Virus record (IMG/VR): IMGVR_UViG_3300002461_000254
Location: 1 to 59,137 of that record
DNA: 59,137 bases
Direction: 5' to 3' (one strand)
Source of the DNA: a virus
Lineage: Duplodnaviria; Caudoviricetes
Positions 34,937-59,137 of the stretch are shown one piece after another. The translations under genes were made by a program, and so were the position numbers. The stretch's first letter is position 1. Every line of letters begins with the position of its first letter. Below the pieces are notes generated by a model. The model saw only the letters and a program-made list of their open reading frames with translations. It was not told the DNA's origin and ran no database searches.

Positions 34937-37594
34937 GTGACGGACATCGCACGGCTTGGCATTCAGGTCGACACCAACGCCGCGAAGGCGCGCGACGACC
35001 TCAAGGGACTGGCCGCGGCCAGCAAGGATGCCGAGCGTGCAGCGTCCGGCACGTCGTCTGCTTTCCAGGCGGCGGCAAACTCCGGCAGTCAGTTCGCCCG
35101 CGCTGCGCAAAGCTCGGTGCAGGCGAACGATCGCCTCACCACCAGCCTGAGGGGGCAGCGCGCCGCCCTCCAGAACCTATCGTTCCAGATCAACGATATC
35201 GCCACGTCGCTGGCGTCGGGATCCAGCCCCTTTCAGGTTCTCGCTCAGCAGGGCGGGCAGGTCATGCAGGTCTGGCAGCAGTCGCCGGGCGTGTTCGGCC
35301 AGGCGGCTACGGCGGTCGGCCGCTTCATGCTGTCGACCAAGGGGGCCGCCGCGACCGTCGCTGGCCTGACGATTGGAGGCGTGGCGCTCTATGAGCGCTG
35401 GGCCGGGGCGCAGCGCGAACTATCCCGCGCCCTTCAGGGTACCGGCCGGGACGCGGGGGCGACAACCGCGCTCCTAAACGCGGCGGCCGAAGCTGCTGCT
35501 CGTGCTCAGGGCGTCTCGGTAGCACAGGCGCGAGGGACAGTCGGGGCGCTGGCTAACACCGGCAGGGTCGGCGCGGGAATGCTGTCGCCGATTGCTTCCA
35601 TGCAGCGAGACCTTGCGGCCACCCTTGGCATTCCCGGAGCCGACGCGAACAAGCTCCTGGCCGAGTCGTTCGCAGATCCGATCCGCGGCGCGGAGATGCT
35701 GAACCAGCGTCTCGGCGGCCTCACTGAGCGCACGCGGCTCTACATCGCCGAGCTTGTCGCGAGCGGCAAGGAACAGCGAGCGCAGCAGGTCCTTATGGAC
35801 ACCTTCGCGCCGCGGCTCGGCAAGGCCAGCGAGCTGACCAGCATCTGGGCCCGGGCATGGGAGACGCTAGGCGCCAAGGCAGGCAACGCTGGAGACGCCA
35901 TCGGCCGAGCAATCGAGCGCGGGCTGGCCCAAGCCTCCGGACCGAGCTTCGCGGACCAGGCTGCCCAGCGTCTGGAGCAGCTTCAGGCACAGGCGCAGGG
36001 GCTGGTGGTCGACCGCGCGACCGGCCGGGAGCTTGGCAACCGGTCGGCTTTCGGTCCTCTCCAGGAGGATATCCAGAAAGAGAACGACGCCCGGAAGCGC
36101 GTGTCGGCCGAGCTGGAAATCCAGCGGGCGGCGATGCATGCCATCCGCGTCGCTCAGGACACCATCAACCTCGCCGTCGAGCGCCAGGCCGGCATGGAAG
36201 CGGAGATCGCTCGCCAGCGTCGGTCGATCGACCGCGGTACCGAAGCCGCGCGAAGCCTTGGCGTGCCCGAGCGGCAGCAGGTCGATCAGGTAACGAACCT
36301 GGCCGACGCATACCGTCGGCTCTACAAGGCCAAGGAAGACGCCTATCAGCGGCAGGGCGACGAAGGGGGCAACGAAGCCTATCAGCGAGCCCGCTCCGAG
36401 ATGATGACCGCGCAGCGAGCATTGCGCGATCAGCTTCAGGAAAATGGCCGGGGCGTCTTCGCCCGCGATGGAGCGCTGTTGCTGGACAACAATCAGCTTC
36501 TCGAGCGGCGCATCTCGCTTCAGGACCAGGTCAACCAGCGCGCCACGGTCGAGCGGCAACAGATCACCGCCGTCACAGCACAGCAGCAGCAGCAGGCTGC
36601 CGCGGCTCAGGTCATTCAGCAGGCGCGGGAACAGGGGGCGTCGGCAGGCAGCGCCGAGCTCGTCGCCGCCAAGGCTCTTGCGGCGGCGGAGACAGTCCGC
36701 GTCGGCATCAGTCACCAGCTGCTCCAGGCGGCCCGCGAGCGCATTCGGTCAACCCAGATGCAGATCGATGCCGAGCGCGCCTCGGCGGCCGTCATGGGCG
36801 GCTCAATCGCCGTCCAAGAGCGCGTGAGGCTGGAAACCCAGCTCATCAATGATGCTCGAAGAGAATATGCGCGGCTCGGCCTACAGATGCCGCAGGCCGA
36901 AATCGAGCACTATCGCCGGCTGGCGGAGGAAATGGGTCGCGTCCGCCAAGAGCAGGCGTTGATGCGCGCGACCCGCGATGCCTCGTTCGACCGTCAGACC
37001 ATGTTCATGGGCGACGGCGAGCGCAACATCGCAAACCAGTTGCGCGGCATCTACGGCGACGGCTGGCAAAGCCAAATGAACTCGGCGCTGGCGAGCCAAC
37101 TCAGGTTCAACGATCAGCTGCGCGCCACAGCCGACCTCATGTCCGGCTTCGGATCGGGAATGGTGTCAGACCTCCGTAGCGGCGTTGGCCTGTGGGGGGC
37201 GCTCGGCAATCAGGTGGCCCGCGTCGGCGACCGTCTAATGGCGATGGCGCTGGACAGTGCGCTGAGGTCTCTTCTCGGCTCGCTGCTTGGAGGCGGCGGT
37301 GGTGGTGGCGTCTTCGGGTCCCTACTCGGCGGTCTATTCGGCGGTGGCGGTGGGACCATTTCCCCCTTCGGGCAGTACGCCACGGGCGGCGCTGTCAGCG
37401 GCCCTGGCACAGGGACTAGCGACTCCATCTTAGCCCGGCTCTCACATGGGGAGTTTGTCGTGAACGCGAAGCAGACGGCTATCCATCGCCCCCTGCTAGA
37501 GGCGATCAATTCCGGCGTCCGCGGCTTCGCGGGCGGTGGGATGGTGCGGCCGTCCTATCCCGGCGTACATTGCGGCGAACTGGTGCTGCCATGA
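34937..37594 (+). CDS. satellite tail tape measure protein
   Basis: NLSFQINDIATSLASGSSPFQVLAQQGGQ; C-terminal ATGGAVSGPGTGTSDSILARLSHGEFVVNA. Confidence 0.9.
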   Translation: MTDIARLGIQVDTNAAKARDDLKGLAAASKDAERAASGTSSAFQAAANSGSQFARAAQSSVQANDRLTTSLRGQRAALQNLSFQINDIATSLASGSSPFQVLAQQGGQVMQVWQQSPGVFGQAATAVGRFMLSTKGAAATVAGLTIGGVALYERWAGAQRELSRALQGTGRDAGATTALLNAAAEAAARAQGVSVAQARGTVGALANTGRVGAGMLSPIASMQRDLAATLGIPGADANKLLAESFADPIRGAEMLNQRLGGLTERTRLYIAELVASGKEQRAQQVLMDTFAPRLGKASELTSIWARAWETLGAKAGNAGDAIGRAIERGLAQASGPSFADQAAQRLEQLQAQAQGLVVDRATGRELGNRSAFGPLQEDIQKENDARKRVSAELEIQRAAMHAIRVAQDTINLAVERQAGMEAEIARQRRSIDRGTEAARSLGVPERQQVDQVTNLADAYRRLYKAKEDAYQRQGDEGGNEAYQRARSEMMTAQRALRDQLQENGRGVFARDGALLLDNNQLLERRISLQDQVNQRATVERQQITAVTAQQQQQAAAAQVIQQAREQGASAGSAELVAAKALAAAETVRVGISHQLLQAARERIRSTQMQIDAERASAAVMGGSIAVQERVRLETQLINDARREYARLGLQMPQAEIEHYRRLAEEMGRVRQEQALMRATRDASFDRQTMFMGDGERNIANQLRGIYGDGWQSQMNSALASQLRFNDQLRATADLMSGFGSGMVSDLRSGVGLWGALGNQVARVGDRLMAMALDSALRSLLGSLLGGGGGGGVFGSLLGGLFGGGGGTISPFGQYATGGAVSGPGTGTSDSILARLSHGEFVVNAKQTAIHRPLLEAINSGVRGFAGGGMVRPSYPGVHCGELVLP

Positions 37595-40134: not shown

Positions 40135-40421
40135 TAAAGGTCGCCGACATCGCTTCCGGGGCGGACACCGGGGATCAAGGCGCCGCTGTCGCCGAGCACC
40201 TGGAGGTGGCGCTGAGCCGCGCCGACGCTGTCACGCTATCGTTCGATGGGGTCTCGACAGCGACCTCGTCTTTCGTCAATGCAGCGCTGCTGCCGATCCT
40301 CGACCGCATGAGCTTCGAGGAGTTCAAACGCCGAGTACGCATCGTCGATTCCACCCGCCAGATCAACGGAATGATACGGGAGCGCGTGATGCATCGCGCC
40401 GCCGCGCTCGCAGCTCACTAG
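40125..40421 (+). CDS. STAS-like (DUF4325) protein
   Basis: VTLSFDGVSTATSSFVNAAL. Confidence 0.8.
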   Translation: MALIKVADIASGADTGDQGAAVAEHLEVALSRADAVTLSFDGVSTATSSFVNAALLPILDRMSFEEFKRRVRIVDSTRQINGMIRERVMHRAAALAAH

Positions 40422-40538
40422 GCGCCGCGTTCCCCTTCCGGTCCTACAGGCAGTTGCGGTGGGAAGGCGCGCGCATCACTCTCATGCCTTGCCCGCTCCG
40501 GTATCTCATGCCTCAATAAGGCAACCGGGGAGGGTGCA

Positions 40539-48567: not shown

Positions 48568-49050
48568 ATGACGGAGATCAACACGAGCCTGGGCGCCCGG
48601 CTCTACATCTCGAATGCCGCCGTTCTCGACACGATCGACACCGTGACCGAGTTTGAAGGCCTGACCTGGGTCGAGGTCGACCCGGTCGAGAACCTCGGCG
48701 ACTTCGGCGACGAGGCCGCGGCGGTGACGTTCTCCGGCCTCAAGGACGGCCGCATCCGCAAGCTGAAGGGCGCGCGGGATGCCGGCGAGCTCGCCGTCGT
48801 GGTCGGCCACAATCCGACGCAGGTCGGCCAGGTCGCGATGATCGCCGCCGAGGCCACCAAGTTCAACTACGGGTTCAAGGTCGAGATCCCCGACGCGCCG
48901 TCGAACCTCTACACCAACTCGGTCTTCTATTTCAGGGGCCGCGTGATGTCGAAGCGCATGAACGTCGGTGGCAACGGCGACGTGACCCGCAGGACCTTCA
49001 ACGTCGGCATCGACAGCCCGATTTACGAAGACCTGTCGGCGCTGATCTGA
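48568..49050 (+). CDS. major tail tube protein
   Basis: LGDFGD, RIRKLKGARDAG, FYFRGRVMS. Confidence 0.85.
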   Translation: MTEINTSLGARLYISNAAVLDTIDTVTEFEGLTWVEVDPVENLGDFGDEAAAVTFSGLKDGRIRKLKGARDAGELAVVVGHNPTQVGQVAMIAAEATKFNYGFKVEIPDAPSNLYTNSVFYFRGRVMSKRMNVGGNGDVTRRTFNVGIDSPIYEDLSALI

Positions 49051-50335: not shown

Positions 50336-50549
50336 GAGCGAGCCAAGCAAGAGGTTGCAGCCTCTGGCCTGGCTCTCACCTCAACCGACCTGTGATGGAG
50401 ATCGGTCATGGCTGTTCGCCTCATACCTCTTTCGTCGCTTTTCCGCGACCCCCTCGTCCGCCGCGCCTTCGAACGCGCCGAGCGGGACAACCCCGGCGCC
50501 AATGCGTTGCCCGTGCGTTCCCCGGTTCTGTCTGGCGGGGAGGCGGCCC

Positions 50550-50852
50550 ATGCACCGGCGTAATTTCCTTGCGGCGGCAGCGACCGTCGCCCTTCCCACC
50601 GCCGCAGTCGCGGCAACCGTCTCGCTGTATGCGGCTGATGTCGCCGCGATCCAGGCTCTGGCCGACAAGGTGGCAGCCCTCTGCGAGGACTGCTCCCGTT
50701 GCCGGGCAGTATACGAGGCCGGCGGCGATCAGGACTGCGAAGCCTGGACGCTCGCCTCGGACGAGCTTCTGCGAGCGCAGGTCGAATTCACGCGGGCCAA
50801 GGCCGCCCTTCATCAACGCGTCATGACGGACGCCGGCATTCCGACCTTCTGA
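50550..50852 (+). CDS. hypothetical protein with Tat-like N-terminus
   Basis: MHRRNFLAAAATVAL. Confidence 0.6.
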   Translation: MHRRNFLAAAATVALPTAAVAATVSLYAADVAAIQALADKVAALCEDCSRCRAVYEAGGDQDCEAWTLASDELLRAQVEFTRAKAALHQRVMTDAGIPTF

Positions 50853-50973
50853 TCACCGAACTTCGCCCTCTGGCAGGGGCAAGACGCGAACCGAGCTTCA
50901 CAGCGCCCGGTATCGCGAAAGCGAACCCGTGCGTCCGGGCCTGCCAGGGCCGGGCGCTGTGGAGACTACGAAA

Positions 50974-51636
50974 ATGGCAAAAGCACCCAAGACCGAGGCG
51001 AAGGGCTTCGAGCTACCGCCCCTCAACATCGGCGTCATGGAGGTGACGCTGATCGGCGACAGTCCGCTCATCGTCCACGCATGGAGCCGCAAGGCCAAGC
51101 TGGAGATGCTCGGCAAGCAGATGAAGCAGGCCAAGGGCGCCAAGGAGGCGAAGGATCCCAAGGCCGACTTCGAAGCCTCGCTCTACCGCCTGGACGACGG
51201 CTACGGCTTCCCGTCGGTGGCGTTCAAGAACGCAGCCGTCACTGCCGGCACGTCGGTGTCCGGCATCACCAAGGTGGCGGCGCGGCAGGCTTTCCATGTG
51301 CTCGGCGAGGACGCCGACGTGGCAGGCGCGTTCGACGGCGCCAAGTCGCGCGTGAACCTTGTTCGCATCATGGGCGGCGAGCCGACGATGCGCGAGGACA
51401 TGGTCCGCGTCGGCATGGGCACTGCCGACCTGCGCTACCGCGGGGAGTTCACCGACTGGTGGGCGAAAATCCTCGTCCGCTACAACGCGAACGTCCTTTC
51501 GGAAGCGCAGATCCTGAACCTGCTCAACGTCGCCGGCTTCGCTGTCGGCGTCGGCGAGTGGAGGCCGGAGCGCGATGGCATGGGCGGCATGTTCCATGTC
51601 GCCACCGAGAAGGACCTCGAGAGGATCGGCGCATGA
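50974..51636 (+). CDS. solo Cas7/RAMP-like protein
   Basis: VTLIGDSPLIVH, YGFPSVAFKNAA, RYRGEF..W...V.Y, and C-terminal Gly loop AGFAVGVGEWRP...GGMFHV. Confidence 0.7.
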   Translation: MAKAPKTEAKGFELPPLNIGVMEVTLIGDSPLIVHAWSRKAKLEMLGKQMKQAKGAKEAKDPKADFEASLYRLDDGYGFPSVAFKNAAVTAGTSVSGITKVAARQAFHVLGEDADVAGAFDGAKSRVNLVRIMGGEPTMREDMVRVGMGTADLRYRGEFTDWWAKILVRYNANVLSEAQILNLLNVAGFAVGVGEWRPERDGMGGMFHVATEKDLERIGA

Positions 51637-52139
51637 GGGTCGCCGGTTACGAGTTCTCCGAGGGCGCCCGCTTCCAGGCGGGAGCCAGCCAGGACCCCAA
51701 GGTGGTAGGCGAGCATCTGGACCTTCTTCGGAAGCAACAGCATGGCGAACTCACCCCCGAGGATGTCGTCGCCGATGCTCGAAACCCGAACAGCCCTCTC
51801 CACTCGTTTTTCGAGTGGGACGACAGCGCCGCAGCGGAGCAGTATCGGCTCCAGCAAGCGCGCGGGCTGATCCGCGCCGTGGTCGCCATCTACGTCCGCG
51901 AGGACAAGCCAGCGGTCCGGACTAAGGCTTTTGTCCACATCAACGAGCCGGGCGCGCCGCACTATCGCGAGGCCGGCCACGCCATGAGCCTGACGAAGAC
52001 CCGAAAGATGGTCCTCCAGCGAGCGTGGCAGGAGTTGCAGGCATGGAGGAAGCGATACCGCGACCTTCAGGAGTTCAGCGAGCTCTTCGACGTGATCGAC
52101 GATGTCGAGAAGCATCTGCCGAAGAAGACGGGCCACTGA
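51633..52139 (+). CDS. accessory protein coupled to the RAMP-like gene
   Basis: ATGA overlap; GELTPEDVVADARNPNSPLHSFFEWDD...RLQQARGLI. Confidence 0.75.
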   Translation: MRVAGYEFSEGARFQAGASQDPKVVGEHLDLLRKQQHGELTPEDVVADARNPNSPLHSFFEWDDSAAAEQYRLQQARGLIRAVVAIYVREDKPAVRTKAFVHINEPGAPHYREAGHAMSLTKTRKMVLQRAWQELQAWRKRYRDLQEFSELFDVIDDVEKHLPKKTGH

Positions 52140-52192
52140 CGGCCAGGGTTACGGCGAGAGTTCCCTAAAACCTCGCGCCCGCAAGGGTTCAC

Positions 52193-52415
52193 GGCAGGCA
52201 AGGCGGGGTGAGTTGTGGCACGGCAAGTCCGGGCACGGGTTGCAAGGCAGGCTTGGCAAGGTGGGGTTTGGCTTGTCACGTCGAGGCATGGCCGGGCAGG
52301 CGAGGTGGGGCAAGGCACGTCCCGGCAAGCCGCGGATAGGTGTGGCAGGAATGGCGTCGCGAGTTGTGGCGCGGCCCGCTCTGGTGGGGCATGGCCGGCC
52401 ATGGTCAGACAGGCA
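52193..52415 (+). ncRNA. (GGY-NN)n pentamer array in four units; putative guide RNAs
   Basis: Strict 5-nt periodicity with GGCA junctions at 52193, 52246, 52295, 52344 and 52412. Confidence 0.8.
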
Positions 52416-52422
52416 GTTGAAG

Positions 52423-52448
52423 GGGCCTCGGCGCGAATGCCGGGGCTT
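52423..52448 (+). terminator. hairpin closing the array
   Basis: GGGCCTCGGC-GCGAAT-GCCGGGGCTT between convergent transcription units. Confidence 0.55.
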
Positions 52449-52453
52449 AGCCT

Positions 52454-52891
52454 CTAGGGGCAGTTGAATGGGGCGCGGGTAGCCGCGACGATGCACTGGT
52501 TGGCGGCGTTGCCGCAGATCGTCTGCATTGTGCCGGCCACGGTGAGGCGCCCGCGCATCTGGTAGCCGACAGGACAGGCCGATGCGGGAGCGGCTGCGCG
52601 GCGGGCAGGGGCGGTAGTCGCTGGCCGCGTCGGCGCCTGGTTGATGATCGTAGTGTTGTTGATCGTCGACGGTGCCGCGGCGGCAGGACGAGGCCCGACC
52701 CTTACGTTCAAGTTGACGCGAGGCGTGCTCACTCGTGGCGCACGAACGCGAGCCGCGCTCCGCGCGCGAGGCCTAGACGATCGCGCGGATGACCGACGCC
52801 CGCGGCGCATCTCAATAGTGGTTTGCGGAATATCCAGCGCCGCCGTCGGAGCGGCGACAAGAAGATGGGCAGCAAAAAGCAATTCGATCAT
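52454..52891 (-). CDS. secreted Arg/Pro/Ala-rich protein with Cys-containing C-terminus
   Basis: Signal peptide; GGAGG RBS. Confidence 0.55.
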   Translation of the reverse strand: MIELLFAAHLLVAAPTAALDIPQTTIEMRRGRRSSARSSRPRARSAARVRAPRVSTPRVNLNVRVGPRPAAAAPSTINNTTIINQAPTRPATTAPARRAAAPASACPVGYQMRGRLTVAGTMQTICGNAANQCIVAATRAPFNCP

Positions 52892-52964
52892 CGTTTCCTC
52901 CCGCGAAGCTATCGTTAGATGGGCCGATGCTCGCAGAGGTGGTACCGGCTGTCGAGTCGCACAG

Positions 52965-53153
52965 CTAGAGCGGCCTTCCGTATTGATCATACCGCGGTCC
53001 CTTCACCGGCACCGCGATGAGCGCAATCAGGCTGAGGACCGGGAAGAGAAGCCCGAGCAAAAACCAGCCCAGTCCGCTGCGGTTCTTTGACCGCGCGATG
53101 AACGCGCAGAAGCCAGCGGCAACCAACCAGGCGAACAGGATCAGCGGCTCCAT
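52965..53153 (-). CDS. small two-TM membrane protein
   Basis: IARSKNRSGLGWFLLGLLF. Confidence 0.7.
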   Translation of the reverse strand: MEPLILFAWLVAAGFCAFIARSKNRSGLGWFLLGLLFPVLSLIALIAVPVKGPRYDQYGRPL

Positions 53154-53183
53154 GCCGTGCGCTCCGCATAAAAGGAAACGTCG

Positions 53184-55256
53184 ATGACCGACGCGGCCGT
53201 TCTTGGCATCGAAATCAAGACCAAAGGCGCCGATGAGGCAAGGCGCCAGCTTGAGAGCATGTCGAAGTCGTCATCCTCTGCCGAGAAGGCTGTATCCGAT
53301 CTTGCGCGCGGTGTGGGGGTATCCAGCGAAGAAATGGTGCGGCGGCTCCAGACTGCCGCCAAGGCCGCCGACGACTTCAAGCGAGCCGGCAATGCGGCAG
53401 GCGCCAACCTGGCGGACTTCGGACGGGCTGCCGATGGGGCCGGGCGCCAGGTCAGTGACCTGACCGGTGGCGTCAATCGTTTCGGTGTGTCGTTCGCTCG
53501 AGCTTTCTCCGCCGCGGTCATCACGGCGGGCATCGCGGGGGCAGTCAAGGCACTCTCCGACCTCAAGGCCGAGCTTCTCGACATCGAAAACGTTGCCAAC
53601 CTGGCCGGCCTCTCTGTGGAAAGGATGACCGCCTATCAGCAGATTGGCCGGTCGGTAGGCGTCGCCGGCGAAGAGACATCGCGGAATCTTCGTGGCATCG
53701 CCGAAAAGCTGAACGAGGCGCAGAACAGCGAGAACAGCCTGACCCGGATTCTTCGCGCAAATAACATCGCGTTCAAGGACCGCGAGGGCGCCGTCATTAG
53801 CGTCAATCAGGCAATGGAGATCGCCGCCGGCCTGATCGAGCGGGCCAAGACCGAGCTCGACAAGATCGATATCGCCAAGGCGCTTGGCCTCACGGAAAAC
53901 TGGGTTCAGATACTGGAGAAGGGCCCCCGGGCGCTCCAGCAGTCGCTCGGGGAAGTCGAGCGGCTTGGGACCGGCATCAACACCGAGATGGTCGAAAAGG
54001 CCCGCGCTTTTGAAAACGCCTGGAACCAGGCTATGGCGAATTGGGCCACCTATTCGAAGTCGGTCATCTACGACTTGGGCAAGTATATCGGCGGGCTGAT
54101 CACCCAAGCCCAGCGCCTTGCAAACATGGCGCCCGACCAAATCCAGGATGCAACATCACGCGCGACCGCGCGTGGGGATCGAGCGAATGGCGTCTACGAC
54201 CCCGCCACTGGCACATGGAGCGGGCCGAGCCCCAATATGGCTCCGGATGGCTCTTATGTGTCGTTTCTCCCCCCGACCCCGGTCGACCGGCCTCCTGAAA
54301 GCACGATCTCCGGAGAGACAAACGTCCCGCGGGGTCGCGCTCGATCTGGCGGCGGCGGCGGGGGTAACGATACCCTATCTTCCTTCGACCGCTCCCTTCG
54401 CCAAATGGAGGAGCGCAACGCCCTCGCCCGCCAGGAACTGGCGACGATGGGCCTCTCCACACAGCAGCGCGAGGCCGCGCTCGCCTATGAGCGCGCGCTG
54501 AACGTTGCCAAGCGGGACGGGGAGACGCTCACGGAGGACCAGCTCCAGAAGCTGCGGGCGCAGTCCGAGGAGTACGGCCGCATCCAGGCGCAATTGGAGC
54601 AGACCAAGAGGCTGATGCGCGAGCTGCGCGAGCTGTCCGACTTCGCCCGCTCCACCGTCTCCGGCCTGTTCACCGACACGCTCTCCGGGATCCAGCAGGG
54701 CAAGGGGGTGTGGGAGAGCTTCGCTCAGGCCGCCGTGAGCGCGCTCAACAAGATCTCCAACAAGCTGGCCGAGATGGCGATCAACGGCCTCTGGGAGGCG
54801 GCATTCCCGACGTCTGGCGGGGGCGGCGGTGGCCTCTTCGGCGCGCTCCTCGGCGGTGTGCTTGGCGGCCTGGGAGGCGGCGGGGACAAGTTCGCCATCA
54901 AGGCGGCCCAGGGCGCTGTCATCCGGCACGGAAACGTCGTGCCGTTCGCCAAGGGCGGCATCGTGACCGGGCCGACGACCTTCCCGATGTCGGGCGGGCG
55001 CACCGGCCTGATGGGCGAGGCAGGCGAGGAAGGCATCTTCCCGATCCGCCGCATGTCCAACGGCGACATGGGCGTCGCCGCTGCAAACTCGAACCGGCCG
55101 CAGTCGATCAGCCTGACCGTCGTGGTCGAGGGCGCCAACGGCGACCAGCACGTCATCGATCTCGTCCGCCAGGGCGTCGAGGCCGGCATGTCGCAGGTGC
55201 AGGCCAACATCGTGCCCACGGTGCGCGAAGGTCTCAGGCGGGGGGCTCTGCGGTGA
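53184..55256 (+). CDS. tail tape measure protein
   Basis: Long helical protein; C-terminal PFAKGGIVTGPT...MGEAGEEGIFP. Confidence 0.92.
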   Translation: MTDAAVLGIEIKTKGADEARRQLESMSKSSSSAEKAVSDLARGVGVSSEEMVRRLQTAAKAADDFKRAGNAAGANLADFGRAADGAGRQVSDLTGGVNRFGVSFARAFSAAVITAGIAGAVKALSDLKAELLDIENVANLAGLSVERMTAYQQIGRSVGVAGEETSRNLRGIAEKLNEAQNSENSLTRILRANNIAFKDREGAVISVNQAMEIAAGLIERAKTELDKIDIAKALGLTENWVQILEKGPRALQQSLGEVERLGTGINTEMVEKARAFENAWNQAMANWATYSKSVIYDLGKYIGGLITQAQRLANMAPDQIQDATSRATARGDRANGVYDPATGTWSGPSPNMAPDGSYVSFLPPTPVDRPPESTISGETNVPRGRARSGGGGGGNDTLSSFDRSLRQMEERNALARQELATMGLSTQQREAALAYERALNVAKRDGETLTEDQLQKLRAQSEEYGRIQAQLEQTKRLMRELRELSDFARSTVSGLFTDTLSGIQQGKGVWESFAQAAVSALNKISNKLAEMAINGLWEAAFPTSGGGGGGLFGALLGGVLGGLGGGGDKFAIKAAQGAVIRHGNVVPFAKGGIVTGPTTFPMSGGRTGLMGEAGEEGIFPIRRMSNGDMGVAAANSNRPQSISLTVVVEGANGDQHVIDLVRQGVEAGMSQVQANIVPTVREGLRRGALR

Positions 55257-56895: not shown

Positions 56896-59137
56896 ATGAA
56901 GCGCATTCTCGCCCTTGCCCTGCTAGCTCTGCTGGCGGGGAGCTCGCCCGCGGCTGCGGATCCGATCTCCCTTGCCATCGGCGCGCTCGTCACGTCGATC
57001 GGCTCGATTGGCGCCACCGTTGGCGCCTTCGTCACCGGCCTCGGCGTGCTTGGCAAGGCGCTGATCTCCATCGGTCTGTCGCTTGCGCTGTCCTTTGTTT
57101 CGTCGCTGTTCCGGCCCAAGCCGAAGCAGGCTGAAGGCGGGGTTCAAAGCCAAATCCAGATCGGCGGCGACGTTCCGCGCTCTGGCATCTTCGGTAAACA
57201 GTCGACCGCAGGCCACATCGTCTATGTGAACACCTCCGGCGGCAGCAATGCCGTGCTGGAGATGGTGTTCGCCGTTGGCGACGGGCGGCATGAGGGGCTG
57301 TCGCGGGTCTGGGTCAACGGCAAACTGTCCGGCCTGACGCAGCCGGGCGCCGACCCCTACTATGTCGTGGATGGCTTCGATGGGAAGCTGACGCTCACCT
57401 TCGTGCCCGGCACTGCGGACCAGTCGGCACTAGCCTCGCTGGTGGCCAGCGCCAACCCTTCTGGCCGGTGGTCCACCGATCACACCCTGACCGGCATTGC
57501 CTACATCGTCGCGCGCCTTCAGTACGACGAGAAGGTATTTCCCAACGGCGTGCCGCAGCTTCTGTTCGAGATGGAGGGCCTGCGCCTCTACGACCCTCGC
57601 TTCGACAGCACGAACGGCGGGACGGGATCGCAGCGCTGGGATGATCCGACGACCTGGGCCTATTCCGAGAACCCGGCCATCCAGCTCTACAACTACCAGC
57701 GCGGCATCTTCCTGGACGGCGAGCGCGTCCTCGGCATGGGTCTGCCCGCGAGCGACCTCAACACCGCGTCCTATATCGCCGCGGCCAACATCTGCGACGA
57801 GACCGTCAGCCTCGCCGGGGGTGGCACCGAGACGCGCTACCGTTGCGGCTTCATCGTCAGCGACGGGATGCAGCACTCGGAGGTTATCGATCGCTTCGTC
57901 GAGGCCATGGGCGGCGTGATTGCCGAGCGGGCCGGGCTCTACACCGTGTTCGCTGGCGTGGCGCAGACCTCCGTCGTGACCATCACGGATGGCGATCTGG
58001 TGCTTGGCCGGCCCCGCACCTTCTCCGGCAAGAAGTCCCGCACCGAGCGGGTCAATGCCGTCTTCGGGACCTATTCCAATCCGGATGAGCAATGGAAGCC
58101 GGTCGCGTTCCCCGCGTTCACGTCCGACACGTTCGAAGCTGAGGACGGCGGCGAGCGTCTCGCCGTCAACCTCGACCTCGCGCAGGTTTTCTCAGTCACG
58201 CAGGCTCAGCGCCTGGCAATGATCCAGCGCCGTCTCGGTCGCCTCCAGGGCACGGCCGAAATCTCCCTGCCGTTCGCCTACATCCGGATCGAAGCCGGAG
58301 ACTGGATGACCTGGCAGTCGGCGCGTTTTGGTTTCACGAAGGTCTGGCAGGTCGTTTCCGCGCGGATCGAGGCTGACCAGACTATCCGCCTGTCGCTCCG
58401 CGAGATCGCTACCAGCGTCTTCTCGTGGATCTCCGGGGACGACGAGCTGGAGGTGGCGCAGCCTGGCCTCGTGCCAAGCCGGCCGCCTCTCGCCGGCGGG
58501 CTGAGCGAGTTCGCCGCGTCGCCGGTCACGATCGAAGGCGACAATGGAAGCGCTGCCCCGGCAATCCGCGCCAGCTGGAATCCGATCGAAGACGAGACCG
58601 TCGCGGCCGTCATCATCGAGCATCGGATCGGCGCGAGCGGCGAGGCTGGTCAGACGCGCTCCGTCAACCGCTTGGGCGGTTTCGTGGTCATTTCCGACGG
58701 CATCCAGCCGAACACCGTCTATCAGGTGCGCGGTACGATCGAGACAGTGCCAGCACGTGAGACGACGTGGTCGTCTTGGGTCAGCGTGACGACCCCAGAT
58801 GTGCGGATCACCGAGGGGGAGCTCGACGACGCCATCACTGCGGCAATCACCACGGCCGGCACCAACGCGGCGCGGGCGCTCCAGGACGCGCAGGATCTGA
58901 TCGCGGCGCTTTCGGCAGACGCGAACCGCTCGCAGCCGGCATCGGCGCGGCTTAACCTCGACCTGTCCAGCCGCTTGGAGCAGCTCTCCGGCGCGGTGCT
59001 CGCTTCTCAGGCTGCGGTCGAGGACTTCAAGGGCGTCCTCGGTGACCTTGGCTGGGAGCGCATCGGCCCCGGTGGTGCATCCCGGTTCCGCGCCATCGAT
59101 GTCGTCAACAATGGCCTGACCACGCTGACGACGCAGA
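56896..59137 (+). CDS. tail tip / host specificity protein (J-like), truncated by the window
   Basis: Open frame to the window end; YDPRFDSTNGGTGSQRWDDPTTWAYSENPA, AAANICDE. Confidence 0.88.
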   Translation, partial: MKRILALALLALLAGSSPAAADPISLAIGALVTSIGSIGATVGAFVTGLGVLGKALISIGLSLALSFVSSLFRPKPKQAEGGVQSQIQIGGDVPRSGIFGKQSTAGHIVYVNTSGGSNAVLEMVFAVGDGRHEGLSRVWVNGKLSGLTQPGADPYYVVDGFDGKLTLTFVPGTADQSALASLVASANPSGRWSTDHTLTGIAYIVARLQYDEKVFPNGVPQLLFEMEGLRLYDPRFDSTNGGTGSQRWDDPTTWAYSENPAIQLYNYQRGIFLDGERVLGMGLPASDLNTASYIAAANICDETVSLAGGGTETRYRCGFIVSDGMQHSEVIDRFVEAMGGVIAERAGLYTVFAGVAQTSVVTITDGDLVLGRPRTFSGKKSRTERVNAVFGTYSNPDEQWKPVAFPAFTSDTFEAEDGGERLAVNLDLAQVFSVTQAQRLAMIQRRLGRLQGTAEISLPFAYIRIEAGDWMTWQSARFGFTKVWQVVSARIEADQTIRLSLREIATSVFSWISGDDELEVAQPGLVPSRPPLAGGLSEFAASPVTIEGDNGSAAPAIRASWNPIEDETVAAVIIEHRIGASGEAGQTRSVNRLGGFVVISDGIQPNTVYQVRGTIETVPARETTWSSWVSVTTPDVRITEGELDDAITAAITTAGTNAARALQDAQDLIAALSADANRSQPASARLNLDLSSRLEQLSGAVLASQAAVEDFKGVLGDLGWERIGPGGASRFRAIDVVNNGLTTLTTQ

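What the first reader, a model, noticed from the sequence alone, without database searches (positions are those of the whole stretch)
48973..49001. Array unit 1 decodes to a gapped near-match in the phage's own tail-tube gene
Seen: unit 1 NN string AA GG GA GT AC AA CG AC TT (AA), read as NN-x-NN-x, aligns to aac ggc gac gtg acc cgc agg acc ttc aac. That is 17/20 specified bases, with skipped bases exactly at codon position 3. The guide spells N-G-D-V-T-K-R-T-F-N; self is N-G-D-V-T-R-R-T-F-N. All mismatches fall in two central codons, one being AGG, an uncommon Arg codon here. My rough uniform-base estimate of a chance hit in this window is about 0.004 (about 0.04 without the last irregular pentamer), not corrected for the guides and spacings tried. 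Inference: the guide targets the tube gene of related competitor phages, is immune to wobble mutations, and self has escaped.
Basis: partly seen in the sequence, partly recalled or inferred. Interest (0 to 1): 0.9.

Follow-up and report, generated by a model that had tools for sequence, protein, structure and literature searches.

The report
VIPR guide RNA against sibling phages
This phage carries a VIPR system, a recently described CRISPR-like RNA-guided gene silencer, and its first guide unit spells, two letters per codon, a tail-tube gene site that is perfect in sibling phages and three letters off in the phage's own copy.

Summary
The ten variable dinucleotides of array unit 1 (52193-52245), read as NNx, match 17 of 20 bases at 48973-49001 in the major tail (tube) gene. 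No other site in the window exceeds 14 of 20.

Two sibling phages have a 20/20 match at the orthologous tube site: IMG/VR contig L141/L165 and a Phreatobacter prophage, L147. They spell NGDVTKRTFN, as predicted. That contig is the only exact hit in all of IMG/VR. Unit 3 matches a tail host-specificity gene of another sibling exactly. Unit 2 matches the L147 tape-measure gene at 16/18.

In 19 records fetched by means other than this finding's own patterns or the tube gene, only a one-base skip gives near-perfect hits. These were 7 of 387 guides against 0 of 1161 permuted guides.

The locus is a VIPR system, described in 2026 preprints:
- a Vipr RAMP protein, whose profile hits the solved SUSP1 Vipr at E 3e-14;
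- an accessory Vap protein;
- GGY/NN pentamer guide RNAs read with a one-nucleotide skip.

It is therefore a new member of a known kind. "Self has escaped" is plausible but not shown. All earlier scan notes that I saw concern this same window.

The parts
48568..49050 (+). Major tail (tube) protein gene, 160 aa. It holds the self near-target.
   Evidence: phrog_158 major tail protein, E 5.1e-21. PF08813 scores 22 bits, just under its cut-off. Homologues L141-L144 and L147.
48973..49001 (+). Self site for vrRNA unit 1. It matches 17/20 NN bases, and the mismatches fall in codons 141-142 (CGC AGG). Siblings carry AAG CGC there and match 20/20.
50929..51636 (+). vipr, the RAMP/Cas7-like guide-binding protein. 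It is 235 aa from the GTG at 50929. The ATG at 50974 is an alternative start, and the first ~33 residues are modelled without structure.
   Evidence: phrog_4652, E 2.3e-28. AlphaFold2 model pLDDT 93.9. Top-ranked listed Foldseek PDB hits are Csm3, Cmr4 or Cas7 chains (E from 2e-5, 41 hits at E <= 1e-3). The family profile hits PDB 36pp_D 'SUSP1 Vipr protein' at E 3.3e-14.
51633..52139 (+). vap, the accessory protein of 168 aa. Its start overlaps the vipr stop.
   Evidence: phrog_15946, E 7.3e-24. 642 homologues, all unnamed or hypothetical, no Pfam family. Model pLDDT 87.6. Only weak winged-helix-like fold matches, Z <= 5.6.
52147..52192 (+). Conserved leader element ahead of the array. It is itself a 20/20 skip-1 target of a guide unit in another provirus (G001).
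   Evidence: The same element occurs in L123, L130, L132 and L134. The G001 unit matches window 52148-52177.
52193..52245 (+). vrRNA unit 1: GGCA, then nine GGY-like/NN pentamers, then GCAA. NN string: AA GG GA GT AC AA CG AC TT AA.
   Evidence: Targets.
52246..52294 (+). vrRNA unit 2, nine pentamers. Its best target is the tape-measure gene of sibling L147 at 16/18.
   Evidence: There are 0 exact hits in IMG/VR. The window's own tape-measure gene is diverged at that site.
52295..52343 (+). vrRNA unit 3, nine pentamers. It matches 18/18 a tail host-specificity gene motif, [DE]GKTPNAYV, in six IMG/VR contigs, including sibling L171.
52344..52411 (+). vrRNA unit 4, twelve more degenerate pentamers. 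No convincing target was found.
   Evidence: The first nine NN have one IMG/VR hit (L172). It does not extend (19/24) and has no homology to the window.
50844..52424 (.). The whole VIPR module (vipr, vap, leader, array). It is a discrete insertion relative to the sibling prophage L147.
   Evidence: L147 aligns to window 50436-50843 and 52425-54414, with about 30 nt in between. tblastn found no vipr or vap in L147, L165, L171 or L142.
53184..55256 (+). The window's own tape-measure gene. It is diverged (33% aa locally) at the site orthologous to the unit 2 near-target.
   Evidence: phrog_8892, E 4e-26. tblastn alignment.
56902..59136 (+). The window's own tail host-specificity gene (Phage-tail_3), which runs off the window end. 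It is 31% identical to the unit 3 target gene and has a 4-aa deletion at the target site.

Best explanation
Window 50844-52424 is a VIPR (Viral Interference Programmable Repeat) module. It has a vipr gene (RAMP protein), a vap gene (accessory protein), a leader and four guide (vrRNA) units made of GGY/NN pentamers.

The published mechanism, which I infer applies here, runs as follows. One Vipr protomer binds each pentamer and hides the GGY triplet. It presents the NN pair, and the filament pairs those NN pairs with double-stranded DNA while skipping every third target base. This represses transcription.

Unit 1's cognate target is a conserved 10-codon site (NGDVTKRTFN) in the tail-tube gene of sibling phages, which would be silenced. 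The carrier's own tube gene differs at three NN bases in two adjacent codons (AAG CGC to CGC AGG, Lys-Arg to Arg-Arg), which I infer spares it.

Shown here:
- the anatomy of the module;
- the homology to a solved Vipr protein;
- the skip-1 sequence relationship for units 1 and 3, and more weakly unit 2;
- its specificity to a one-base skip across the family.

Inferred:
- expression and processing of the RNA;
- DNA binding and repression by this particular system;
- that three mismatches abolish self-silencing;
- that the self mismatches arose under selection.
For: Target relationship:
- Unit 1 is 17/20 on self and unique in the window.
- It is 20/20 on siblings L141/L165 and L147, and 18/20 on L142/L143.
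- It has exactly 1 hit in IMG/VR, at that same site.
- Unit 3 has 6 exact IMG/VR hits. All 6 are in codon phase and spell [DE]GKTPNAYV. One lies in the contig of sibling L143/L171, in a Phage-tail_3 gene.
- Unit 2 is 16/18 on the L147 tape-measure gene.

Family-wide control. I used 387 unique sliding guides against 403,178 nt of records not fetched through this finding's patterns or the tube gene. Hits of 17/18 or better:
- skip 1: 7 guides, against 0 of 1161 permuted guides;
- skip 0: 1 guide;
- skips 2 and 4: none.
Independent pairs are an L134 unit on a G002 tape-measure-like gene (20/20), a G001 unit on the leader of the window and L132 (20/20), and an L132 unit on the vap genes of G005 and G003 (17/18 and 16/18).

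Module conservation:
- 17 of 17 vap loci with downstream DNA carry 9-20 in-phase pentamers.
- The same gene pair and array occur in Cheoctovirus mycobacteriophages.

Protein evidence:
- The top-ranked listed Foldseek matches are Cas7-family chains.
- The profile hits SUSP1 Vipr (36pp_D) at E 3.3e-14.
- SUSP1 residues H17, R138 and D177-W178-R179 align with window H50, R171 and E210-W211-R212. Their roles are taken from passages seen.

Published rule and biology come from the sections read.
Against: - There is no expression data. No RNA run holds the locus.
- Unit 4 has no convincing target, and unit 2 has no exact hit in IMG/VR.
- The self match of 85% NN identity lies above the 80% threshold the VIPR authors use to call a target. 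They report no self hits at that level, so self-sparing cannot be assumed here.
- The same AAG-to-CGC and CGC-to-AGG differences from siblings occur at tube codons 123 and 125. No unit 1-4 skip-1 hit in the window falls there. The central mismatch cluster may therefore be ordinary divergence.
- The excess of Arg/Ser codon-family switches in the tube gene is weak: 4 of 26 against 7 of 137 in four neighbouring genes, versus L165.
- The Vap fold is unresolved.
- tblastn of Vipr against the phage collection did not reach SUSP1 directly. Only the profile search did.
- The sliding guides overlap, so counts of guides are not counts of independent events.
Confidence: 0.85

Rival explanations
1. The unit 1 match to the tube gene is chance, found by trying many guides, spacings and an irregular tenth element.
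For: Taken alone, the self match is borderline. The permutation P is 0.0013 for ten dinucleotides and 0.016 for nine, before correction for four units and several spacings. Units 2-4 have no near match in the window. Other carriers show no excess of self near-matches: DRBy19 and G001-G004.
Against: Two siblings match 20/20 at the orthologous site. That contig is the only exact hit in 2.9 million IMG/VR contigs. Unit 3 independently hits a sibling's tail gene exactly. The enrichment is specific to skip 1 in records unrelated to this finding. The rule has also been established experimentally for the family.
Confidence: 0.02
2. The self site is not an escaped target. It is a working, deliberately imperfect one, through which unit 1 tunes or delays the phage's own tube-gene expression, for example by silencing late genes in the lysogen.
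For: The 85% NN identity exceeds the 80% cut-off used in the VIPR paper to call natural targets. The tolerance of this system to mismatches is unknown. The passages I searched in the structure paper contain no mismatch data.
Against: The guide is perfect against siblings and imperfect against self, which is the opposite of what a self-regulator would need. Units 2 and 3 point at sibling alleles of genes that are strongly diverged in the carrier. The authors state that perturbing NN pairing abolished silencing (I did not see the figure).
Confidence: 0.07
3. This rival concerns only the 'escape' step. The tube gene did not mutate in response to the guide. The mobile module, with unit 1 already in it, could settle only in a lineage whose tube gene already differed. 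The filtering happened at acquisition, not through later escape.
For: The module is a discrete insertion that is absent from sibling L147. It is found in very different genomic positions and hosts. The window's tube gene shows the same kind of multi-base codon differences elsewhere, at codons 123 and 125. Overall it differs from L141 at 51 of 483 nt.
Against: The three NN mismatches fall in two adjacent codons of an otherwise fully matched 10-codon site. They combine a conservative Lys-to-Arg change with a synonymous CGC-to-AGG switch to a rare codon (10 of 106 Arg codons). Those are the kinds of change that alter NN at least cost to the protein.
Confidence: 0.35

Closest known systems
VIPR systems (Vipr + Vap + vrRNA) of Escherichia phage SUSP1 and a Pseudomonas fulva prophage. 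Sources: bioRxiv 10.64898/2026.04.26.720920 and 10.64898/2026.04.26.720927.
   Same: - Two-gene locus with a small RAMP protein and an accessory gene.
- Flanking non-coding arrays of GGY/NN pentamers with 9-16 repeats per guide.
- Targets read with a one-nucleotide skip that falls on codon wobble positions.
- Targets in competing phages and in other VIPR systems.
- Phage or prophage location.
- The window's Vipr family profile hits the solved SUSP1 Vipr at E 3.3e-14, with the GGY-contacting residues conserved.
   Different: - Host and lineage: an alphaproteobacterial siphophage whose sibling is a Phreatobacter prophage.
- Sequence is too far from SUSP1 for a direct tblastn hit.
- The units are not followed by a recognisable conserved 3' tail or pseudoknot. 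They are punctuated by GGCA, with anchor spacing of 5n+4 and a mode of 49 nt. This resembles the 'staggered arrays' with 1-nt overlaps named in a figure legend. I could not assign a type (I-VII) because figures and supplements are not available to me.
- The targets found here are tail structural genes (tube, tape measure, host-specificity protein) of sibling phages. The reported targets are satellite genes or lysis-lysogeny regulators.
- One guide retains 85% NN identity to its own genome, whereas the authors report no self hit at 80% or above.
Type III CRISPR-Cas backbone proteins (Cas7 family: Csm3, Cmr4).
   Same: RAMP fold. The best listed Foldseek matches of the Vipr model are Csm3, Cmr4 or Cas7 chains (E from 2.2e-5, TM 0.35-0.50). 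As in Cas7, one protomer binds each repeat of the guide, and a thumb breaks the guide-target duplex periodically.
   Different: - No CRISPR repeat-spacer array and no cas10, cas1, cas2 or other cas genes nearby.
- The guide period is 5 nt with only 2 pairing bases, against 6 nt with 5 pairing bases.
- Three guide bases are read by the protein.
- The target is double-stranded DNA in the published system.
Type IV CRISPR-Cas and other nuclease-free, CRISPRi-like systems used in competition between mobile elements (recalled, apart from the search listing).
   Same: Carried by mobile elements, aimed at rival mobile elements, with no obvious nuclease. The likely outcome is silencing rather than cutting.
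   Different: These use contiguous spacers in CRISPR arrays and multi-subunit Cascade-like complexes. No homology to them was tested here.

Membership tests
VIPR system | Vipr protein: a minimal RAMP homologue with an RRM core, a G-loop and a thumb, related to the characterised Vipr proteins. | tested here: met
   Model pLDDT 93.9. Foldseek: 41 PDB chains at E <= 1e-3, and the top-ranked listed rows are Cas7-family chains. The profile of 87 family members hits 36pp_D 'SUSP1 Vipr protein' at E 3.3e-14 over chain residues 3-191 of 202. H17, R138 and D177-W178-R179 align with window H50, R171 and E210-W211-R212 (roles).
VIPR system | Minimal locus of vipr plus one accessory gene (vap), with no CRISPR array or cas operon. 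| tested here: met
   The two genes overlap (50929-51636 and 51633-52139) and are flanked by tail genes and small ORFs. Pfam and PHROGs gave no Cas family for the ten neighbouring proteins. TRF and the repeat finder show no repeat-spacer array. I did not run a dedicated CRISPR finder.
VIPR system | vrRNA genes: tandem YNNGG (GGY/NN) pentanucleotide repeats, 9-16 per guide, in the flanking intergenic DNA. | tested here: met
   Four units of 9-12 pentamers at 52193-52411 (unit 1: nine plus an irregular 4-nt GCAA). GGY fills 26 of 39 full pentamers and the rest are degenerate. The same arrays follow vap in 17 of 17 related loci that have downstream DNA.
VIPR system | Targets follow the one-nucleotide skip rule (NNx), mostly with the skipped base on the wobble position, in competing mobile elements. 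| tested here: met
   Unit 1 is 20/20 on sibling tube genes. Unit 3 is 18/18 on a sibling tail gene. Skip 1 is the only enriched spacing: 7 of 387 guides at 17/18 or better, against 0 of 1161 permuted. Skips 0, 2 and 4 gave 1, 0 and 0.
VIPR system | vrRNAs are transcribed, processed to about 100 nt or less, and co-purify with Vipr. | not testable with these tools
   No RNA run was available for the locus, so this could not be examined. The consensus scan found no promoter in the region and only one terminator-like hairpin, on the minus strand at the vap stop. Terminator-like hairpins follow the arrays in several relatives (by eye).
VIPR system | The ribonucleoprotein binds double-stranded DNA and represses transcription. 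| not testable with these tools
   Known only for the SUSP1 and P. fulva systems.
VIPR system | Assignment to one of the seven published types, by Vipr phylogeny, vap class and array architecture. | not testable with these tools
   The type definitions are in figures and supplementary data that I could not see. The 5n+4 anchor spacing resembles the 'staggered' arrays of the fig. S18 legend. The weak winged-helix-like Vap fold is compatible with the DNA-binding vap classes, but this is inconclusive.
CRISPR-Cas type III (considered because of the Cas7 fold) | A CRISPR repeat-spacer array, with Cas10 and further Cas subunits. | tested here: not met
   No repeat-spacer array. No Cas families among the neighbouring proteins. 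The guide period is 5 nt, not 6.

The most novel reading that the evidence does not exclude
The carrier phage's own tube gene is a former or still partly live target of its own VIPR guide. The module entered a lineage that it targets and forced a structural gene to change at NN positions: Lys to Arg, plus a synonymous CGC-to-AGG switch to a rare codon.

More generally, a guide that ignores wobble bases leaves only two cheap escape routes. One is conservative replacement. The other is a switch between the two codon families of Arg, Ser or Leu. Such switches in phage tail genes would then be a readable footprint of VIPR pressure. Here there are 2 Arg and 2 Ser switches in 160 tube codons.
Probability: 0.25. 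Interest if true: 0.6.

Novelty: new member of a known kind. Interest (0 to 1): 0.4.

Why it matters
Every testable part of that reading held. This shows the scan can recover a recently discovered class of RNA-guided system.

For the field, the locus adds four things:
- A VIPR system in an alphaproteobacterial tailed phage, with related systems in Rhizobiales prophages and Cheoctovirus mycobacteriophages. In the mycobacteriophages the array is annotated as a small hypothetical protein gene.
- Natural targets in tail structural genes of near-identical sibling phages.
- Cross-targeting of a rival system's leader and vap gene.
- A self site that sits above the published 80% target-calling threshold. 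This makes the mismatch tolerance of VIPR, and how carriers avoid silencing themselves, directly testable with one pair of reporter constructs.

Tried and rejected
- A TRAP-like ring protein binding GGY triplets, a CsrA or Hfq sponge, a G-quadruplex array, a Rho utilisation site on the minus strand and a sigma-54 promoter were all considered from memory while reading the array (after). I dropped them once the skip-1 targets and the Vipr homology appeared. None was tested.
- A protein-coding reading of the array (ORFs 52102-52467 +, 52149-52496 -) was rejected. All frames are open because of the repeat. The NN positions, not any reading frame, carry the conserved relationship.
- Reading NN plus the following G as codons fits the targets worse than NN alone. 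This was my own comparison of the strings.
- Rfam at gathering thresholds found 0 matches in the window, and no tRNA was found. TRF did not report the array at all.
- Self near-match tests in other carriers showed no excess over permuted guides: DRBy19 against its own 58,368-nt genome and G001-G004 against their own records. One 18/22 match in G004, on the opposite strand, was not followed up.
- Unit 2 had 0 exact hits in IMG/VR. The first nine NN of unit 4 had 1 hit (L172), which does not extend (19/24) and has no homology to the window. I treat that as inconclusive.
- Vap fold: Foldseek found nothing at E <= 1e-3. VIA-align wide gave a best Z of 5.6, mostly winged-helix proteins. This is below the level at which a fold can be called.
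- tblastn of Vipr against the phage collection matched 34 records (27 Mycobacterium, 5 Gordonia, 1 cyanophage, 1 Pseudomonas phage). SUSP1 was not among them.
- Sequencing runs: no RNA holder was listed, and read laying was not used.
- The promoter and terminator scan of 50700-52600 gave nothing useful.
- Codon-family switches (Arg, Ser, Leu): 4 of 26 in the tube gene against 7 of 137 in four neighbouring genes, versus L165. This is suggestive only.
- The literature search 'mycobacteriophage + pentanucleotide' found nothing relevant. 'Cas7-like + prophage + RNA-guided' found only CRISPR reviews. 'pentanucleotide repeat + guide RNA + phage' found the VIPR preprint.
These are the locus lists, type assignments and data S3-S4. 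I cannot say whether this locus or its relatives are among the 667 published systems.

Papers and what I saw of each:
- 10.64898/2026.04.26.720920: abstract, Results, Discussion, three Methods sections and searched passages.
- 10.64898/2026.04.26.720927: abstract, one Results section and searched passages.
- 10.64898/2026.10.15.759431: abstract and outline only.
- 10.64898/2026.10.21.760802: search listing only.
Full report
**The observation.** Window 48973-49001 reads AAC GGC GAC GTG ACC CGC AGG ACC TTC AA. It lies in frame in a 160-aa gene, 48568-49050, that matches PHROG 158, major tail protein (E 5e-21). Its neighbours are a tail terminator, tail chaperone-like ORFs and, further on, a tape-measure gene.

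The unit 1 dinucleotides, spaced by three bases, occur once in the window, at 52200-52241, with 0.01 matches expected. The stretch 52180-52400 has a strong 5-nt periodicity. Autocorrelation is 0.48 at lag 5, against about 0.23-0.26 at neighbouring lags. It splits at GGCA anchors at 52193, 52246, 52295 and 52344 into four units of 9-12 pentamers (unit 1: nine plus an irregular GCAA). The first three bases are GGY in 26 of 39 full pentamers. The other 13 are degenerate triplets.

Read with one skipped base, unit 1 scores 17/20 at 48973-49001. Nothing else in the window exceeds 14/20, on either strand or at skips of 0, 2 or 4. With the dinucleotide order permuted, a best hit of 17/20 or more arose in 2 of 1500 trials. 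For the nine regular dinucleotides, 15/18 or more arose in 24 of 1500. With four units and several spacings tried, the self match alone is only borderline.

**Relatives settle the question.** A search for the tube protein found four IMG/VR loci and one bacterial genome locus, in a Phreatobacter sp. MAG.
- In L141 (93% aa identity) and L147 (85%) the orthologous site is AAC GGC GAC GTG ACx AAG CGC ACx TTC AAy.
- L142 and L143 score 18/20.
- L141 and L147 differ from each other at three of the skipped positions, yet both are perfect.
- The 20-base pattern has a single exact match in the whole IMG/VR collection, and it is this site.

Unit 3 gives an independent replicate. Its 18-base pattern has six exact IMG/VR matches. 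All six are in codon phase and spell [DE]GKTPNAYV, with varied wobble bases. One lies in the same contig as L143, a sibling of the window phage. It sits in a Phage-tail_3 gene that follows the tape-measure gene. The window's own copy of that gene is only 31% identical and has a 4-aa deletion at the site.

Unit 2 matches the tape-measure gene of L147 at 16/18. The window's own tape-measure gene is diverged there. Unit 4 has no convincing target.

**A family-wide control.** The 168-aa protein encoded just upstream of the array has relatives in 18 IMG/VR loci. All 17 that extend beyond the gene carry a run of 9-20 in-phase pentamers within 700 nt downstream.

I cut every array into sliding nine-pentamer guides. 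I searched them against 403,178 nt of records that had not been fetched through this finding's own patterns or the tube gene. Hits of 17/18 or better:
- skip 1: 7 of 387 unique guides, against 0 of 1161 permuted guides;
- skip 0: 1 guide;
- skips 2 and 4: none.

The guides overlap, so these seven are about three independent events:
- a unit of L134 against a 1167-codon tape-measure-like gene of provirus G002 (20/20);
- a unit of G001 against the conserved leader that precedes the arrays of the window and L132 (20/20; L134's leader scores 17/18 and 17/18);
- a unit of L132 against the 168-aa gene of two other systems (17/18 and 16/18).

The leader is non-coding, so the one-base skip belongs to the recognition mechanism and is not merely a result of codon phase.

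In contrast, guides do not show an excess of near matches to their own genomes in DRBy19 or in G001-G004.

**The proteins.** The 235-aa protein (50929-51636, PHROG 4652) has 3366 representative relatives at E <= 1e-3. Its model is confident (pLDDT 93.9). The best listed Foldseek matches in the PDB are Cas7-family backbone proteins of type III CRISPR complexes (E from 2.2e-5, TM 0.35-0.50; 41 chains at E <= 1e-3).

A profile of 87 family members hits the PDB chain 36pp_D, named 'SUSP1 Vipr protein', at E 3.3e-14. In that alignment, SUSP1 H17, R138 and D177-W178-R179 align with window H50, R171 and E210-W211-R212. The structure paper describes these residues as holding the two guanines and the pyrimidine of each repeat.

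The 168-aa partner (51633-52139, PHROG 15946) has no Pfam family and only weak winged-helix-like fold matches.

The same gene pair and a very regular array of about 50 pentamers occur in Cheoctovirus mycobacteriophages such as DRBy19. There the array lies upstream of the pair and is annotated as a small hypothetical gene.

**What it is.** A literature search found three 2026 preprints on VIPR (Viral Interference Programmable Repeat) systems. From the sections I read:
- VIPR loci hold a minimal RAMP protein (Vipr), an accessory gene (vap) and vrRNAs of 9-16 YNNGG repeats.
- One Vipr protomer binds each repeat, displaces the GGY bases and presents NN.
- The target is double-stranded DNA, read with one skipped base per repeat, usually the wobble base.
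- Binding represses transcription.
- Natural targets are satellites, rival prophages and other VIPR systems.

The window meets every defining feature that sequence can test. Expression, RNA-protein binding and DNA silencing of this particular system remain untested.

The array differs from the characterised type II arrays. I see no conserved 3' tail after each unit. The units are punctuated by GGCA, with anchor spacings of 5n+4 (49 nt in 24 cases, 54 in 7, 59 in 7, 44 in 6). This resembles the 'staggered arrays' with one-nucleotide overlaps mentioned in a figure legend. I could not assign a type.

**The 'self has escaped' step.** The module (50844-52424) is a discrete insertion that is absent from sibling L147. 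No Vipr was found in the held sibling sequences or in the L147 MAG, which may be incomplete.

All four siblings that retain the site carry AAG CGC, and the distant L144 has Lys at the first of these codons. The window's CGC AGG is therefore derived. The change costs one conservative replacement and one synonymous switch to a rare codon (AGG is 10 of 106 Arg codons). It removes three NN matches in adjacent repeats.

Two points cut against selection for escape. The window differs from L141 at 51 of 483 tube nucleotides. The same AAG-to-CGC and CGC-to-AGG differences also occur at codons 123 and 125, and no unit 1-4 skip-1 hit in the window falls there. The excess of codon-family switches in the tube gene is weak as well (4 of 26 against 7 of 137).

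The self site keeps 85% NN identity, which is above the 80% threshold the authors use to call targets. They report no self hits at that level in their systems. Whether this site is really spared is an open and easily tested question.

**Verdict.** The kind of system is already described, so this is a new member of a known kind. Three details are worth following: the tail-gene targets in sibling phages, the cross-targeting of a rival leader and vap gene, and the self site above the published target-calling threshold.

Noticed in passing
L001 2365-2625 (Mycobacterium phage DRBy19, record 36627-36887); L002 2465-2660 (phage ByChance): Cheoctovirus mycobacteriophages carry a very regular GGC-NN array of about 50 pentamers. 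It sits between the antirepressor region and homologues of vipr (gp52, phrog_4652, E 2e-58) and vap (gp53, phrog_15946, E 4e-89). Part of the array is annotated as a small hypothetical protein gene (gp51 in DRBy19, gp39 in ByChance). Here the array lies upstream of the gene pair, not downstream.
   Followed up: partly
window 52148-52177; provirus G001 minus strand, around 38538 (array unit); L132 1656: A guide unit of another provirus (G001) matches 20/20, at skip 1, the conserved non-coding leader that precedes the arrays of the window and L132. It scores 17/18 and 17/18 on L134. G001's own leader differs at two NN pairs and has 3 extra bases. This is VIPR aimed at a rival VIPR.
   Followed up: partly
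L132 about 1594-1640 (array unit); G005 56325; G003 18049 (minus strand): A guide unit of L132 matches the C-terminal part (KDLKEFADL) of the vap gene of two other systems, at 17/18 and 16/18.
   Followed up: no
L134 3669-3720 (array unit); G002 40413-40442: A guide unit of L134 matches 20/20 a site (QVDQKELDLI) in a 1167-codon tape-measure-like gene of an unrelated provirus. Tail genes recur as targets in this clade.
   Followed up: partly
window 35171-35200: A guide unit of L124 matches 18/20, at skip 1, a site in the window's second, 885-aa tape-measure-like gene (34937-37594). An earlier scan note assigns that gene to an integrated satellite. Matches of 16/18 also occur among permuted guides, so this is only a lead.
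   Followed up: no
window 50844-52424 against L147 9226-9255: The whole module is replaced by about 30 nt in the sibling Phreatobacter prophage, with clean homology on both sides (77% and 86% identity). It is a mobile cassette inserted between the tail-chaperone region and the tape-measure gene.
   Followed up: partly
window 48568-49050 against L165 and L147: The tube gene shows 2 Arg (CGC/AGG) and 2 Ser (TCG/AGC) codon-family switches among 26 conserved Arg, Ser or Leu codons. Four neighbouring genes show 7 among 137. These are the only synonymous changes that alter NN positions. The excess is not significant.
   Followed up: partly
Many contigs have several runs. I did not look at their neighbouring genes.
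   Followed up: no
phage records OP820472.1 (Gordonia phage Ecliptus, gene 19), BK059895.1 (Cyanophage Cy-LDV1), OQ594955.1 (Pseudomonas phage LESphi2): Vipr homologues (E 4e-40, 7e-11 and 1e-5) are annotated as hypothetical proteins in phages of Gordonia, a cyanobacterium and Pseudomonas aeruginosa.
   Followed up: no
window 52193-52411: Tandem Repeats Finder (minimum score 30) and Rfam gathering thresholds both miss the array entirely. Standard repeat and RNA-family annotation would not flag such loci.
   Followed up: yes
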